From NCBI GenBank assembly GCA_000004985.1, contig GG739160.1: a stretch of DNA of 4,229 nt; one strand, written 5' to 3'. Both the position numbers and the translations under genes were made by a program. The stretch is from Naegleria gruberi. Its lineage: Eukaryota. The notes under the pieces were generated by a model. That model was given only the letters and a program-made list of their open reading frames with translations. It ran no database searches and was not told the DNA's origin. Shown here piece after piece: positions 1-4,229 of this stretch. How positions within the stretch are numbered: the first letter of the stretch is position 1; every line of letters starts with the position of its first letter.

Positions 1-960
1 GAATGTCTTCATATTCTGCATTGATCATTTCCCAGCCTTTCTGAACTATTACAAGATTATGCTTGAATAATTCCATTGCAATTTTGTCTTTGGAGTTATT
101 CTCATAAGTTTTGGAACGCTTGGCTATTTCTTCTTGAATCATTTCTACTTTCTTTGATGAAATCTTCTTTTTGGCAAGTGATTGACTGGCATTGGCAGTT
201 GTTTTTTCATGTTCTTTAGGAGAAAAAGCAGCTCTATACGAATCAAAAGTTGGATCCAAACGTTTTCTCATTTCATACGAGCCAGAAAAAATTATTTCAT
301 TATCAACTTGATGCATGAGAATCTTTTTGAGATAAACGAGAGTGAAAATAGTGCACATCTTGTCCTGAGTTTCGGTTAATCTTGTTCCCTCAATAACGTC
401 TCCCTCAATTTCATGAAATTGAACTGATAATTGCTTTCTCAATATGAAATTGCTGAGAAGATTACAGACGAAACAAAGCTTGTGTTGAGGAGAAAGATTA
501 TCGTACATATTTCTGAAAACAGTGTTATGTGAAAAGAAGCCACTATATTCAACAAAGACTATTCACCAAGATGATGATTAACAACCTTATTCGAAACAAG
601 TTTAAACTTACCTTCCTTTTCAGGATGAGAAACATTCAAATCTACAAAACGCTCCCAATCTCTAATAATTCGTGGAATCAACAATTTGAATAATTCACAA
701 TACTCTTCATACATTGGCAATCTCTCCAAAGGAAATGCTATAACTTTACTACACAATTCGTCCCAATCATACATGCCAGTCCTTTCGTATTTGGTGTTGA
801 GTAATTGCTCAGCCTTTGGAAGTGATTCACCCATTCCTGTGAGCCAATCCTCTAAAACTTGTTTCTTTTGACTCTCACTCATATTGGCAAAGGCTTTGAG
901 AATGTATTTAACGCAACAAATTGATTTTGAAAACTTACCCTTGAGGAATTGTGTTGACAT
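1..960 (-). CDS. Hypothetical soluble protein, 5' end in window, 3' end beyond left edge. Proposed two-exon model: exon 1 = 960..612, intron = 611..559, exon 2 = 558..1. N-terminus MSTQFLKGKFSKSICCVKYILKAF...; after the junction ...HPEKE|VFVEYSGFFSHNTVFRNMYDNLSPQHKLCFV...AEYEDI...
   Basis: ATG at 960-958 sits in an AAAAAAAATG context. The 133-aa ORF (559..960) ends at a TAG at 561-559. A second minus-strand frame is open with no stop from 562 down to position 1 (187 codons, internal Met at 508-506). It is absent from the ORF track because it has no stop and runs off the edge; I translated it by hand. The two frames differ by 1 nt and are bridged exactly by a GT-AG interval (see intron feature). 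The composition is K/E/L-rich and looks like real protein. I could not recognise a domain family from the sequence alone. Confidence 0.7.
559..611 (-). other. Putative 53-nt spliceosomal intron on the minus strand. Donor GAAG|GTAAGT at 612/611-606. Acceptor AATAG| at 560-559, where the TAG stop of the unspliced 133-aa ORF is the acceptor itself. Possible branch-like TTAAT about 20 nt upstream of the 3' splice site.
   Basis: Seen directly: the minus-strand sequence reads gaa g|gtaagtttaaacttgtttcgaataaggttgttaatcatcatcttggtgaatag|tc ttt gtt. Removing 53 nt (phase 1) rebuilds the codon G+TC=GTC and lands exactly in the only frame that stays open to the window edge. The alternative explanation is a 1-nt indel error in the assembly near 559-565. 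Confidence 0.5.
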
Positions 961-1124: not shown

Positions 1125-1135
1125 GGTTCGATTCC
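1125..1135 (+). other. Pol III B-box / tRNA T-arm consensus 11-mer GGTTCGATTCC in intergenic DNA. It could be a tRNA-derived or SINE-like relic, and it is not a foldable tRNA.
   Basis: It is an exact match to GGTTCGANTCC. The chance expectation for a specific 11-mer in an ~8.5-kb two-strand search space is about 0.002. I could not build an acceptor stem or a T stem around it (GGTGG pairs with CCTGG at only 2 bp), and there is no clear A-box (the closest is AGCTACTGGAG near 1045). Confidence 0.2.
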
Positions 1136-1242: not shown

Positions 1243-1577
1243 TTAGTGCCAATTTGGCTTATTACTGTTTTCCCGTCGAGATCTGTGTTGTTCAACAGTT
1301 CTTTCCACTTCCTTTGTGAATGCTCCTTCATGTGTATCCATCCAAAACTGGACAGCTAAATGGATGGACATAATAAGAGGTGAAATGAGTTCCAATCCTC
1401 TCACTTTGAACTTGGCAACTGAGAAAACAACCATTATTAAAACTAAAGAAGCAAACAATGATCCGGCCAATAGTTTGATTAAAATTTCAATGGTACATTC
1501 ATACAGATCTTGTACATCCGTTTTTCTAAATGTTCCTTTTAACTTTTCATGAGCAGTATGAAGAATTGCCATACTAA
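1243..1577 (-). CDS. Possible C-terminal continuation of the membrane protein in a shifted frame, which could equally be a pseudogenised tail: ...VISMAILHTAHEKLKGTFRKTDVQDLYECTIEILIKLLAGSLFASLVLIMVVFSVAKFKVRGLELISPLIMSIHLAVQFWMDTHEGAFTKEVERTVEQHRSRRENSNKPNWH*, with a TAA at 1245-1243.
   Basis: This is a 112-codon open frame (track ORF 1243..1581, GTG start overlapping the upstream TGA) on the same strand. It begins inside the stop codon of the 360-aa ORF. The upstream ORF ends in the middle of a hydrophobic helix (…LVIPLMMLIVAAL*). A 1-nt shift in the gct-gct-ttg-tga run would give a complete 23-residue helix (LVIPLMMLIVAAL-VISMAILHTA), then HEKLKGTFRK, then two more TM helices and a charged tail. 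The open-frame length and the TM periodicity both argue that this is coding. A separate eukaryotic gene starting 6 nt after another gene's stop is implausible. Confidence 0.45.
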
Positions 1578-2842
1578 TCACAAAGCAGCCACTATTAACA
1601 TCATTAGAGGAATTACCAGAGGATTAACAATATTCAAATGATATAATAAATATGAATCTTCACATATCTCTCTGATAATAATAACTAAAAAGAAACAAGC
1701 TAAGGTTGGTATGAAATGGGATTTTTCAAATAGAGAGGGAAATTGACATCTTTTTCTTATTGTTTCTTTGTTACAATTTTCAAATAAATAGTAAATCAGC
1801 CAAAGAAAGGAAGCAAATACTATGTAAAGCATTGAGCCAATCGCATCAAAATAATAAAATAGGTGTTGTTCCCATACACTTAAGCGTTGATTGTAAAGAT
1901 AAAATTTTGTTTTCTTTGTGACCCAGTAAAAAACAATTCCACTCAAAAATATACATCCTATGACAACTCTAATAAAATAGTAAATAAACATTTTTGCTTT
2001 TTGAACCAGTGCACCACATGTAGATGTATGGTTAACAAAATCAATCAGTATACTGGCCCACAATATGATTGTAGAAAATGAAATGCAAGTTATTAATCCT
2101 CCATACGAAATCAAAATGTTATGATTTGGAGGCTGTTCTGTGAAAAATACCCATCCCAAAGATAATAACCCCAATGACACAAACATATTCTTTCCTGTAA
2201 ACGAATTCTTTCGAATTTTGAATAATGGTATCACATTAAAAAACATTTTTTTCACCAGGAATAAAGCCACATAGGAAAAACTCATTTCCCATTCGAAAGT
2301 TTTCTTTTCTTCAGAATTGAAACAACAGCAACAAGTAATTTCTTTGTCTTGATGATTTTGTTCAAGGAAACCTTCATTTTCTTCACCGTCTGATTCACTT
2401 TCTGCCTCTTCAATGTTGTCTGAATTTGAAGTAGTTTGAGAAGTTCCAATATCTTTAAGTTCTATTGATCCACTATTAGATGGTGGTGCATTAGGAATTG
2501 CTAGTGTTATTGTTGATGTGGAAATGGTTTTACCTTCTGAAACTGAAGGATTATTGTTTGAAGAAGGTACATGTTTACGAACCTTTTTCTCTCTTTCATG
2601 TTTACAACATCCAAGGTAGAGTATCAGAATAATTGCACCTATTAATTGAGCAGCAATCACAATAGAATATGGAAAATAAAATAGTTGAATGCTTTCGGCA
2701 GGTTTGTCATTAATTGGATGGCATTCAAAATTTCTACTTGAAACTTCATAACAAACACTAACTGGTTGAGTTCTGTCAAAACATCCTTTGACTTGTTGGA
2801 TAACATCACGATAACTACTGATAGTAATATTCTCAGAAGGGA
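1578..2842 (-). CDS. Main body of a multi-pass membrane protein, with its 5' side interrupted by the assembly gap. Ectodomain tail ...PSENITISSYRDVIQQVKGCFDRTQPVSVCYEVSSRNFECHPINDKPAESIQLFYFPYS. TM1 IVIAAQLIGAIILILYLGCC. Then a ~110-aa acidic Ser/Thr-rich loop (…EEAESESDGEENEG…EITCCCCFNSEEKK…). Then at least 6 hydrophobic helices up to the TGA at 1580-1578.
   Basis: The ORF track lists 1578..2660 (360 aa), but the codon at 2660-2658 is GTG (plus-strand 'cac'), so the track is using alternative start codons. By hand, the same frame stays open for a further 61 codons upstream to the gap edge at 2842, with no ATG, so the 'M' at 2660 is an artefact. There is an N-glycosylation sequon (NIT) and 3 Cys in the ectodomain stub. 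KHEREKKVRK after TM1 follows the positive-inside rule. Helices include MFVSLGLLSLGWVFF, ILISYGGLITCISFSTIILWASILIDFV, MFIYYFIRVVIGCIFLSGIVFYWV, LFYYFDAIGSMLYIVFASFLWLIYYLF, FIPTLACFFLVIII and LVIPLMMLIVAAL. Confidence 0.8.
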
Positions 2843-3061
2843 NNNNNNNNNNNNNNNNNNNNNNNNNNNNNNNNNNNNNNNNNNNNNNNNNNNNNNNNNN
2901 NNNNNNNNNNNNNNNNNNNNNNNNNNNNNNNNNNNNNNNNNNNNNNNNNNNNNNNNNNNNNNNNNNNNNNNNNNNNNNNNNNNNNNNNNNNNNNNNNNNN
3001 NNNNNNNNNNNNNNNNNNNNNNNNNNNNNNNNNNNNNNNNNNNNNNNNNNNNNNNNNNNNN
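2843..3061. other. Assembly gap (219 N) lying inside the ectodomain-coding part of the membrane-protein gene.
   Basis: There is a run of n characters. Coding frames are open on both flanks on the minus strand. Confidence 0.99.
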
Positions 3062-3201
3062 CTACTCTCTTGTACAGTTAATTTTCCATACAGGTCCTTG
3101 ACATCATTTTGCCATGAACGAAGATTACAAGCAAGACAAAATGTTGTGTGAAAACCAAGAAGAAAAATAAGCAGTGCCAACAACAGCATATGTGATGACA
3201 T
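3062..3201 (-). CDS. N-terminal segment (start codon plus signal peptide) of the same membrane-protein gene: MSSHMLLLALLIFLLGFHTTFCLA|CNLRSWQNDVKDLYGKLTVQES..., running into the N gap.
   Basis: ATG at 3201-3199 in a cataaaaATG context. It has a classic n/h/c signal-peptide layout with a predicted cleavage after CLA. It is on the same strand and orientation as the ORF that resumes at 2842, and the gap is only 219 nt of N's. There is a TATAAAAG element 50 nt upstream. The link to the downstream ORF is an inference because the true gap length and frame are unknown. Confidence 0.65.
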
Positions 3202-3607: not shown

Positions 3608-4229
3608 ATGGATTTTCAAAAGGCTGCAGCCAAGTTGAAGGAACGAGGCAATGAACACTTTAAAAAGAATGAATTATCGGAGGCTATTAAATGTTATCAA
3701 CAAGCCTTTGAACATGATGAAGATGCCTTCTTTAAAACAAACTTGGCTCTTTGTTATATTAAATTAAAACAATATGAGAAGGCTACGGAGGAGTGTAAAT
3801 CTGCAATCAAGTTGAATCCAAAGTTTGTAAAGGCTTATTTCTTGTTGGGAGAATGTCATTTGAATTGTTTGAATTATGAGCAAGCTGAGAGTGCTTATTT
3901 GAAAGCTGAAGTATTGGCTAAGGAATTACATAATACATCCAAATCTATATTGCTGAATATTTATAAAGGAGTTGATAGATCGAGAGCAAGGAGATATGAG
4001 AAACAAGAACAGGAGAGACAATCAGTAGTTGCAGAATTGAAAAAGTATGTCGAAAAGACGATGGACAATTATGAAAATATGGGAATGGTCAAATCATCAA
4101 CTGAAAGAGAAGAGTTTAATCTGAAAAAGTTTCAATTAGAGTCCTTCTTTGAACAGAATTTGCATCCACACAAGGAAACTGAAGTCCCAGATGTTTTGTG
4201 TTGTAAAATAACCTATACTATTATGAGAG
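3608..4229 (+). CDS. CHIP: CHIP/STUB1-type E3 ubiquitin ligase (TPR + U-box co-chaperone), 5' end complete, 3' end beyond the window. MDFQKAAAKLKERGNEHFKKNELSEAIKCYQQAF…TNLALCYIKLKQYEKATEECKSAIKLNPKFVKAYFLLGECHLNCLNYEQAESAYLKAEVLAKE…RRYEKQEQERQSVVAELKKYVEK…EVPDVLCCKITYTIMR
   Basis: I translated this by hand. The frame is open for 207 codons from the ATG at 3608 (preceded by an in-frame TAA at 3602-3604, context ttaaaaaATGg) to the window end. It is missing from the ORF track because it has no stop. It contains three TPR motifs that align with human CHIP (TNRALCYLKMQQHEQA / [33 protein letters not shown]), then a charged coiled-coil segment, then the first residues of the U-box (human DIPDYLCGKISFELM). 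The human comparison is from memory and not from a search. Confidence 0.85.
   Translation, partial: MDFQKAAAKLKERGNEHFKKNELSEAIKCYQQAFEHDEDAFFKTNLALCYIKLKQYEKATEECKSAIKLNPKFVKAYFLLGECHLNCLNYEQAESAYLKAEVLAKELHNTSKSILLNIYKGVDRSRARRYEKQEQERQSVVAELKKYVEKTMDNYENMGMVKSSTEREEFNLKKFQLESFFEQNLHPHKETEVPDVLCCKITYTIMR

What the first reader, a model, noticed from the sequence alone, without database searches (positions are those of the whole stretch)
1243..3201. Unusual multi-pass membrane protein: signal peptide, Cys-containing glycosylated ectodomain, TM1, a ~110-aa acidic Ser/Thr-rich loop with a CCCC motif, then at least 6 (possibly up to ~10) TM helices
I did not recognise this architecture as any family known to me (GPCR, PKD/TRPML, TM9SF, lung-7TM). 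From memory, the loop after TM1 in those families is either short or extracellular. Here the loop follows a positive-inside KHEREKKVRK and should therefore be cytoplasmic. It carries an acidic cluster (EEAESESDGEENEG) and a CCCC palmitoylation-like motif. The gene is split by the assembly gap. The ORF track mis-starts it at a GTG, so automated annotation would probably miss the signal peptide and call a truncated 360-aa protein.
Basis: partly seen in the sequence, partly recalled or inferred. Interest (0 to 1): 0.6.

Follow-up and report, generated by a model that had tools for sequence, protein, structure and literature searches.

The report
Unannotated orphan membrane protein, Naegleria gruberi
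This is a real but mostly unannotated gene of the amoeba Naegleria gruberi for a many-pass membrane protein with no detectable relatives outside that species; it is broken by an assembly gap and a reading-frame break, and nothing shows that it works in a new way.

Summary
The window is a complete 4229-bp Naegleria gruberi scaffold. They are a signal-peptide-like start (3201), a 219-N gap, a 420-codon stop-free frame (2840-1581; the longest in 1000 simulations was 151) and a further 109-codon ORF (1572-1246).

No consensus intron bridges the break. A single missing base is the best fit, because it restores one 22-residue hydrophobic helix.

Only the last 109 codons are annotated (NAEGRDRAFT_76799). 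The 420-codon part is absent from the protein databases searched.

Pfam, NCBIfam, PDB sequences, a word-indexed search of 5.8 billion proteins, exhaustive phmmer of 1.84 billion representatives, and metagenome and viral contig scans were all tried. They found only itself and one N. gruberi paralogue of the C-terminal module (47% identity). AlphaFold2 models were poor (pLDDT 47-52) and fold searches gave nothing usable.

The most likely topology is N-terminus outside, TM1, a roughly 100-residue disordered acidic cytoplasmic loop flanked by CC and CCCC, then 8 (possibly 9) helices, with the C-terminus inside. This layout is not unprecedented: SID-1/SIDT proteins have it. This protein, however, lacks their S-H-D-H-H metal site and any profile match.

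Verdict: a lineage-restricted orphan gene that was mis-annotated. Modest interest.

The parts
3130..3201 (-). Start codon (3201-3199) and signal-peptide-like segment MSSHMLLLALLIFLLGFHTTFCLA. Cleavage after CLA is likely (small residues at -3 and -1; inferred, as no SignalP was available).
   Evidence: It lies 406 bp from the divergently transcribed CHIP gene, as expected for a shared promoter region.
3062..3129 (-). First visible part of the ectodomain (CNLRSWQNDVKDLYGKLTVQES), open up to the gap.
2843..3061 (.). Assembly gap of 219 N inside the ectodomain coding region. The flanking frames are offset by 1 nt, so the length is an estimate.
2685..2840 (-). Ectodomain after the gap (52 aa). It has an NIT sequon at 2831-2823 and Cys20, Cys30 and Cys40. 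AF2 places Cys30 and Cys40 on the two strands of a beta-hairpin (low confidence).
2604..2684 (-). TM1 (LFYFPYSIVIAAQLIGAIILILYLGCC), ending in a juxtamembrane CC (2609-2604).
   Evidence: KD 2.56; AF2 helix 56-89
2316..2603 (-). Disordered acidic Ser/Thr/Asn-rich loop, read as cytoplasmic. It begins with KHEREKKVRK (2603-2574), and holds the acidic cluster EEAESESDGEENEG (2411-2370) and CCCC (2333-2322).
   Evidence: coil in the AF2 model with pLDDT 30-43
2214..2285 (-). Helix A (MSFSYVALFLVKKMFFNVIPLF) with KK in its middle. It is probably interfacial or re-entrant rather than membrane-spanning.
   Evidence: KD only 1.64. The K/R count is 21 inside and 7 outside if A does not span, and the reverse if it does.
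1581..2189 (-). Hydrophobic helices B to F and the first half of G: B 2189-2133, C 2117-2037, D 1991-1914, E 1859-1779, F 1718-1659, G from 1631. This is the end of the 420-codon frame.
1573..1599 (-). Frame break. TGA of the main ORF is at 1580-1578 and the ATG of the annotated 109-aa ORF at 1572-1570. Adding one base here joins the frames and gives one 22-residue helix, PLVIPLMMLIVAAL|VISMAIL.
1243..1572 (-). The annotated NAEGRDRAFT_76799 ORF (109 aa plus stop TAA at 1245-1243). It holds helix H (1488-1411), helix I (1389-1333), the QFWMDTHE motif conserved in the paralogue (1350-1327) and a basic C-terminal tail.

Best explanation
**What it is.** One protein-coding gene of Naegleria gruberi on the minus strand, about 3201 to 1243. 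It encodes a lineage-restricted ('orphan') polytopic membrane protein of more than 580 residues.

**Why it was missed.** Gene callers missed it because an assembly gap removes part of exon 1. In addition, one base is missing near 1581-1590, either as an assembly error or as a real indel. That splits off the last 109 codons, which are the only part annotated.

**Inferred working model.**
- A cleaved signal peptide takes the N-terminus into the ER lumen. A small Cys-containing ectodomain faces outside or into the lumen.
- TM1 crosses the membrane once.
- A roughly 100-residue disordered acidic Ser/Thr-rich linker lies in the cytoplasm. It is held at the membrane at both ends by Cys clusters (CC after TM1, CCCC before helix A) that are plausible S-acylation sites.
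- The linker carries a casein-kinase-2-type acidic cluster (EEAESESDGEENEG). Clusters of this kind serve as sorting signals between the trans-Golgi network and endosomes in other proteins.
- An 8-helix core (helices B to I) follows, with the basic C-terminal tail in the cytoplasm. That gives 9 TM in all, N-terminus outside and C-terminus inside.
- The helices of the core carry several charged or polar residues (R, D, E, K, H). The last helix ends in an H-x8-D-x-H-E motif that is invariant in the only paralogue. On this basis I favour a transporter-, channel- or lipid-handling-type core over a scaffold. The loop would control its sorting.

**Shown and inferred.** Shown: the ORFs, their composition, the hydrophobic segments, the lack of homologues and the state of the annotation. 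Inferred: signal-peptide cleavage, topology, acylation, sorting and any activity.
For: - **Coding.** The stop-free run is 420 codons, against a maximum of 151 in 1000 simulations. Synonymous-codon scores are highest in the proposed frames of both ORFs.
- **Organism and annotation.** P0004 is identical to residues 424-532 of the reconstruction. It is XP_002668291 / NAEGRDRAFT_76799, on a contig of 4229 bp. No database protein covers the 420-codon part.
- **One gene rather than two.** The main ORF ends inside a hydrophobic helix, only 5 nt before the next ATG. The second frame is also hydrophobic just upstream of that ATG (GCFVIS). Adding one base yields a 22-residue helix with KD 2.87, the highest in the protein.
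- **Not an intron.** There is no GTAAGT-type donor in the gene, whereas the neighbouring gene has two. The intron candidates 1616->1543 and 1581->1526 would delete TAHEKL, which is conserved in the paralogue.
- **Topology.** KHEREKKVRK follows TM1. The K/R count is 21 inside and 7 outside for the 1+8 model. AF2 secondary structure gives TM1, a coil loop and then 9 helices.
- **Orphan status.** No hit in Pfam, NCBIfam, PDB, 1.84 billion representative proteins, or metagenome and viral contigs. N. fowleri and an environmental relative do not have this gene beside CHIP.
Against: - The paralogue P0005 is itself annotated as a stand-alone 108-aa protein. Its alignment with NAEGRDRAFT_76799 begins at the Met. 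That fits the C-terminal module being an independent unit.
- No transcript data were available. The join across the gap and the join across the frame break are therefore both unproven.
- The AF2 models are of low confidence (pLDDT 47.5 and 52.5). The helix packing is unknown and the fold is undetermined.
- Topology comes from hydropathy and charge counts only. The D|E loop (4 K/R) and the H|I loop (3 K/R) lie outside in the favoured model.
- The missing base could be a real mutation, in which case the gene may be decaying.
- The proposed function is a guess from composition.
Confidence: 0.55

Rival explanations
1. There are two translation units. The large membrane protein really ends at TGA 1580-1578. 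NAEGRDRAFT_76799 (ATG 1572) is an independent small two-helix membrane protein, or a duplicated gene fragment lying directly downstream.
For: - The paralogue NAEGRDRAFT_62867 (P0005) is annotated as a stand-alone 108-aa protein on an 850-kb scaffold. The alignment starts at its Met.
- The profile search finds only these two short proteins.
- The ATG at 1572 has A at -3 and G at +4.
- A copy of the paralogue's C-terminus sits beside a Mutator-like transposase, so this module has been moved or copied on its own.
Against: - A 5-nt spacer leaves no room for a eukaryotic promoter or a 3' end.
- The main ORF would end in a 15-residue half-helix with no tail.
- Hydrophobicity continues across the junction in the second frame.
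- Both 108/109-aa models are ab initio calls that simply begin at the first ATG of an ORF.
Confidence: 0.22
2. It is a decaying gene (pseudogene). The frameshift is real, the locus is a recently inactivated lineage-specific gene, and the architecture no longer yields a functional protein.
For: - There is a frame break with no usable intron.
- There is no orthologue in N. fowleri or at the syntenic CHIP locus.
- The sequence lies on a tiny unplaced scaffold.
Against: - There is only one disruption in more than 530 codons.
- Both ORFs are otherwise intact and keep the best codon-usage score in frame.
- The C-terminal module is conserved at 47% identity with its paralogue, including the invariant QFWMDTHE.
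- Draft Sanger sequence next to a gap is prone to single-base errors (general knowledge).
Confidence: 0.13
3. It is a highly divergent member of the SID-1/SIDT (ChUP, CREST superfamily) family of lipid-hydrolase / RNA-cholesterol transport proteins, which share its overall layout.
For: The order of parts is the same: signal peptide, ectodomain, TM1, a disordered cytosolic loop of about 100 or more residues, then many TM helices with the C-terminus inside (PMC11208740).
Against: - There is no Pfam PF13965 hit even at E<=1-5, and no SIDT chain in the PDB sequence searches.
- SxxxH and HxxxH motifs are absent, so the S-H-D-H-H metal site is missing.
- The protein has 9-10 helices rather than 11.
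- The visible ectodomain is short.
- Fold searches returned only generic helical bundles.
Confidence: 0.04
4. The signal-peptide segment (3201-3062) belongs to a different short gene or exon, and the large ORF starts somewhere inside the gap.
For: The gap hides the connection, and the frames on its two sides differ by 1 nt at the stated gap length.
Against: - Both pieces are on the same strand and both frames are open right up to the gap edges.
- There is no in-frame ATG between 2840 and TM1, so the large ORF needs an upstream start.
- A type-I orientation of TM1 (Cys-rich segment before it, KHEREKKVRK after it) requires a signal peptide.
- The 406-bp spacer to CHIP looks like a shared promoter region.
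Confidence: 0.06

Closest known systems
SID-1 / SIDT1 / SIDT2 (ChUP family, CREST superfamily; Pfam PF13965)
   Same: The order of parts matches: N-terminal signal peptide, Cys-containing N-glycosylated ectodomain, TM1, a disordered cytosolic loop of more than 100 residues (CL1), then a multi-helix core with a cytosolic C-terminus (PMC11208740).
   Different: - No sequence or profile similarity.
- No S-H-D-H-H metal site: no SxxxH and no HxxxH.
- 9-10 helices against 11.
- The ectodomain appears much smaller than the roughly 300-aa double jelly roll, although part of it is hidden by the gap.
NAEGRDRAFT_62867 (XP_002681581, 108 aa, N. gruberi 'predicted protein')
   Same: It is the only true homologue found. 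It is 47% identical to the last 109 residues, with two hydrophobic helices and invariant YECTI, KLLA, FSV and QFWMDTHE.
   Different: It covers only the C-terminal module. No annotated protein resembling the 420-codon part accompanies it. Its function is unknown.
Nonaspanins (TM9SF) and signal-peptide-peptidase-like proteins (SPPL2)
   Same: A signal peptide, a luminal domain and about 9 TM helices with the N-terminus outside and the C-terminus inside.
   Different: - They have no long cytosolic loop after the first TM.
- No Pfam EMP70 or Peptidase_A22B hit.
- No YD, GxGD or PAL motifs.
Acidic-cluster sorting signals and juxtamembrane S-acylation sites (for example the furin cytoplasmic tail; from general knowledge)
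   Same: EEAESESDGEENEG is a run of Ser between acidic residues, like casein-kinase-2-phosphorylated acidic clusters. CC and CCCC lie directly at the cytoplasmic ends of hydrophobic helices, like typical palmitoylation sites.
   Different: The resemblance is at motif level only and is untested. Such motifs also arise by chance in low-complexity acidic loops.

Membership tests
SID-1/SIDT (ChUP; PF13965) | Profile or sequence similarity to the SID-1_RNA_chan transmembrane domain | tested here: not met
   hmmscan against Pfam at E<=1 and E<=5 returned only noise (DUF2062 at 0.62, DUF4752 at 0.25). phmmer against PDB sequences, which include SIDT1/2 chains, found nothing.
SID-1/SIDT (ChUP; PF13965) | S-H-D-H-H metal site: SxxxH and D in the mid-core helices, HxxxH in the last TM | tested here: not met
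   A regex scan found no SxxxH and no HxxxH anywhere in the 532 residues. The motif definition is from PMC11208740.
SID-1/SIDT (ChUP; PF13965) | TM1 followed by a disordered cytosolic loop of more than 100 aa before the remaining TM helices | tested here: met
   The loop is 96-106 residues. It is coil with pLDDT 30-43, has net charge -8 and starts with KHEREKKVRK. The cytosolic side is inferred from the positive-inside rule.
SID-1/SIDT (ChUP; PF13965) | Beta-sandwich (double jelly roll) ectodomain of about 300 aa, and 11 TM helices | tested here: inconclusive
   Only 22 + 52 ectodomain residues are visible around a 219-N gap. There are 9-10 helices in all.
7TM receptor families (Lung_7-TM_R/GOST, Frizzled, Dicty_CAR, class A-like) | Profile match; seven consecutive TM helices directly after the ectodomain; class motifs (E/DRY, NPxxY) | tested here: not met
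   No Pfam hit. TM1 is separated from the rest by a loop of about 100 aa, and 8-9 helices follow. There is no [DE]R[YFW] and no NPxxY.
Polycystin / TRPML (PKD_channel) | A large structured extracellular loop between TM1 and TM2, followed by a 6-TM channel core | tested here: not met
   The loop is disordered, acidic and preceded by a basic cluster, so it is read as cytoplasmic. There is no Pfam PKD_channel hit.
Signal peptide peptidase-like (SPPL2) / nonaspanin (TM9SF) | YD, GxGD and PAL catalytic motifs (SPPL); EMP70 profile (TM9SF) | tested here: not met
   The motifs are absent and there is no Pfam hit.
Unnamed N. gruberi family NAEGRDRAFT_76799 / 62867 (C-terminal two-helix module) | Significant full-length similarity, including QFWMDTHE | tested here: met
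   phmmer E=2e-19 at 46-47% identity. The profile search recovers only these two proteins.

The most novel reading that the evidence does not exclude
The gene founds an undescribed family of polytopic membrane proteins restricted to Naegleria. The family would have a SID-1-like layout (ectodomain, TM1, long acylated and phosphorylatable cytosolic linker, 8-9-helix core) but a different core, ending in a conserved H-x8-D-x-H-E site. Its C-terminal two-helix module would also exist as a separate, transposon-associated unit. A further possibility is that the frame break 5 nt before a conserved Met is biological (termination-reinitiation or recoding) and not an error.
Probability: 0.15. Interest if true: 0.45.

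Novelty: new member of a known kind. Interest (0 to 1): 0.25.

Why it matters
The main practical value is as an annotation correction. A gene of more than 530 codons is represented in public databases only by its last 109 codons, because a gap and a frame break defeated the gene caller. The neighbouring CHIP ubiquitin ligase also seems to be missing from the N. gruberi protein set.

Biologically, it adds one more species-restricted multi-pass membrane protein to a protist whose proteome already holds many such orphans (general knowledge). Its layout resembles SID-1/SIDT, but the catalytic metal site is absent, so no function can be transferred from that family.

It would matter more if transcript data and a good structure showed a new membrane fold, or if the C-terminal module proved to be a mobile, separately expressed unit.

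Tried and rejected
**Homology and family searches (all negative)**
- Pfam on the whole protein, the TM part and the paralogue, and NCBIfam, gave only noise.
- The word-indexed search of 5.8 billion proteins found nothing. It even missed the identical 109-aa record, probably because candidates were capped at 8000.
- Exhaustive phmmer against 1.84 billion representatives found only itself, one paralogue and a chimeric gene model.
- A profile of the C-terminal module found nothing new.
- PDB sequence searches found nothing.
- Metagenome contig scans (two) and a viral contig scan found no relative.

**Structure**
- AF2 on the full reconstruction gave pLDDT 47.5. AF2 on the TM core alone gave 52.5.
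- Foldseek against PDB gave a best E-value of 2.6.
- The afdb50 library was unavailable.

**Synteny**
- The N. fowleri CHIP locus and an environmental relative have glutathione peroxidase, not this gene, next to CHIP.
- N. gruberi DNA for the paralogue loci could not be fetched.

**Introns**
- I enumerated all GT..AG pairs that join the frames and looked for consensus donors.
- 1616->1543 and 1581->1526 were rejected because they delete residues conserved in the paralogue.
- 1599->1574 (26 nt) was rejected as too short (my judgement from general knowledge of spliceosomal introns), and it leaves only a 12-residue hydrophobic stretch.

**Other checks**
- No internal repeat in the TM domain.
- No significant DNA repeats flanking the gene.
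- No tRNA or Rfam family in the window.
- The bacterial promoter/terminator scan does not apply to a eukaryote.
- A literature search for the locus tags and accessions gave zero papers.
Full report
**Source and context.** The window is eukaryotic and AT-rich, with 28-37% GC in the sequenced parts. An exhaustive protein search found a 109-aa protein identical to the ORF at 1572-1246 on the minus strand. The cluster look-up names it XP_002668291 / NAEGRDRAFT_76799, a 'predicted protein' of Naegleria gruberi on a contig of exactly 4229 bp. The window is therefore one whole small scaffold of the N. gruberi draft genome.
- On the plus strand at 3608-4229 lies a CHIP/STUB1-type gene with TPR repeats and the start of a U-box. 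It is 68% identical to N. fowleri CHIP and is cut off by the scaffold end.
- On the minus strand at 960-1 lies another gene with GTAAGT donors and no recognisable family.

**Check of the observation.** On the minus strand, ATG 3201 opens MSSHMLLLALLIFLLGFHTTFCLACNLRSWQNDVKDLYGKLTVQES and then runs into the gap. The gap is 2843-3061, 219 N.
- After the gap a different frame is open for 420 codons, from 2840 to 1581, ending at TGA 1580-1578. In 1000 Markov simulations of this region the longest stop-free run was 151 codons, with a mean of 83. It is therefore coding sequence, not chance.
  - a Cys-containing segment with one NIT sequon;
  - TM1 (2684-2604, KD 2.56);
  - KHEREKKVRK;
  - a loop of 96-106 residues with 23% Ser/Thr and 21 acidic against 11 basic residues;
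  - EEAESESDGEENEG (2411-2370);
  - CCCC (2333-2322).
- Hydropathy and AF2 secondary structure give nine further helices.
The region is thus three pieces: exon 1, the main ORF and the terminal ORF. They are separated by a gap and a frame break.

**The frame break.** I enumerated every GT..AG pair that would join the two frames.
- None has the GTAAGT donor seen twice in the neighbouring gene.
- The terminal ORF aligns with its only paralogue from its very first residues (M..L.TA.EKL). The 74-nt (1616->1543) and 56-nt (1581->1526) candidates would delete conserved residues, so they are unlikely.
- The 26-nt candidate (1599->1574) is very short and leaves only a 12-residue hydrophobic stretch.
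- By contrast, adding a single base near 1581 joins ...NPLVIPLMMLIVAAL to VISMAILHTAH.... That creates one 22-residue helix with the highest hydropathy in the protein (KD 2.87). As it stands, the main ORF ends in half a helix, 5 nt before the next ATG.
- I therefore favour one gene with a single-base error or indel. That reading is the basis of my overall confidence of 0.55.
- The main rival is that the 109-aa ORF is its own unit. The paralogue NAEGRDRAFT_62867 is also annotated as a stand-alone 108-aa protein starting at the aligned Met. A copy of the paralogue's C-terminus is fused, in a gene model on another small scaffold, to a Mutator-like transposase fragment.
- I could not fetch N. gruberi DNA for those loci.

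**Homology.** Nothing places the 420-codon part in any family.
- Pfam and NCBIfam gave only noise.
- PDB sequence searches found nothing.
- The word-indexed search found nothing.
- Exhaustive phmmer over 1.84 billion representatives hit only the C-terminal 109 residues: itself, the paralogue at 46%, and a chimeric model.
- A profile of the C-terminal module added nothing.
- Back-translated pattern scans of the metagenome and viral contig collections found no relative.
- N. fowleri is in these databases but has no detectable homologue. At its CHIP locus, and in an environmental relative, the divergent neighbour is a glutathione peroxidase.
- The gene is therefore restricted to N. gruberi as far as current data show. 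Its main part is not an annotated protein at all.

**Structure.** AlphaFold2 without an alignment gave pLDDT 47.5 and pTM 0.31 for the 532-residue reconstruction. It gave pLDDT 52.5 and pTM 0.38 for the TM core alone. Only the secondary structure is usable.
- Foldseek against PDB had no hit below E = 2.6.
- The AFDB library was not available. The fold is undetermined.

**Topology and likely working.** A signal-peptide-like start, a Cys-containing segment before TM1 and KHEREKKVRK after it together put the ectodomain outside and the loop in the cytoplasm.
- K/R counts in the short loops were compared for two models. If all nine later helices span, there are 7 inside and 21 outside. If helix A (MSFSYVALFLVKKMFFNVIPLF, KK in its centre, KD 1.64) does not span, there are 21 inside and 7 outside.
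- The best model is therefore TM1 plus eight spanning helices, with the N-terminus outside and the C-terminus inside.
- Both ends of the loop carry Cys clusters exactly at the membrane boundary (CC 2609-2604, CCCC 2333-2322). This is the usual setting for S-acylation.
- The Ser-containing acidic cluster resembles casein-kinase-2-dependent sorting signals. Both points rest on general knowledge and were not tested.
- The core helices hold several charged residues. The last helix ends in H-x8-D-x-H-E, invariant in the paralogue.
- My committed guess is a sorted, acylated transporter-, channel- or lipid-handling-type protein of the secretory or endolysosomal system. Confidence in any specific activity is low.

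**Comparison with known families.** It is not.
- SID-1/SIDT proteins have an ectodomain, TM1, a disordered cytosolic loop of more than 100 residues, and ten more helices around an S-H-D-H-H metal site (PMC11208740).
- The layout matches, but membership fails. There is no PF13965 match, no SxxxH or HxxxH motif and a different helix count.
- GPCR-like, polycystin/TRPML, TM9SF and SPPL families also fail their profile and motif tests.

**Verdict.** This is a real, lineage-restricted orphan gene for a polytopic membrane protein. It was badly served by draft assembly and annotation. The claim of an unheard-of architecture is overstated. There is no evidence of a new mechanism, so interest is modest (0.25).

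Noticed in passing
window 3608-4229 (+): A CHIP/STUB1-type E3 ligase gene (three TPRs, then the start of the U-box at VPDVLCCKITYTIMR), cut off by the scaffold end. The best database hit is N. fowleri at 68% identity, and no N. gruberi protein was returned. The N. gruberi CHIP therefore seems to be missing from the annotated protein set.
   Followed up: partly
window 1-960 (-): A second minus-strand gene (MSTQFLKG...), with GTAAGT donors at 938 and 611 and a likely intron around 611-513. It runs off the scaffold and has no Pfam or PDB match. The exact splice phase was not resolved.
   Followed up: partly
L001 8814-10925; L002 1-1208: In N. fowleri and in an environmental heterolobosean contig, the gene divergently paired with CHIP is a glutathione peroxidase, not the membrane protein. 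Local gene order is not conserved with N. gruberi.
   Followed up: yes
proteins P0006 (NAEGRDRAFT_54896, 3888-bp scaffold) and P0007 (NAEGRDRAFT_63184): P0007 is a Mutator-like transposase (PF20700, E=4.5e-17). P0006 is a gene model that fuses a fragment of that transposase to the last ~55 residues of the paralogue NAEGRDRAFT_62867. This suggests a MULE inserted next to, or carrying, a copy of the C-terminal module.
   Followed up: partly
window 1125-1135 (+): GGTTCGATTCC, the consensus tRNA T-arm sequence, lies in the intergenic region between the two minus-strand genes. ARAGORN and Rfam find no tRNA, so it is a remnant or a chance match.
   Followed up: yes
window 2843-3061: The gap is exactly 219 N (a multiple of 3), yet the open frames on its two sides are offset by one base. 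The gap length is a placeholder estimate and not the true distance.
   Followed up: yes
window 1659-1644 region (-), residues 394-399: EDSYLL matches the [DE]xxxL[LI] dileucine sorting pattern. In the favoured topology it lies in the F|G loop on the outside, so it is probably not a functional signal.
   Followed up: no
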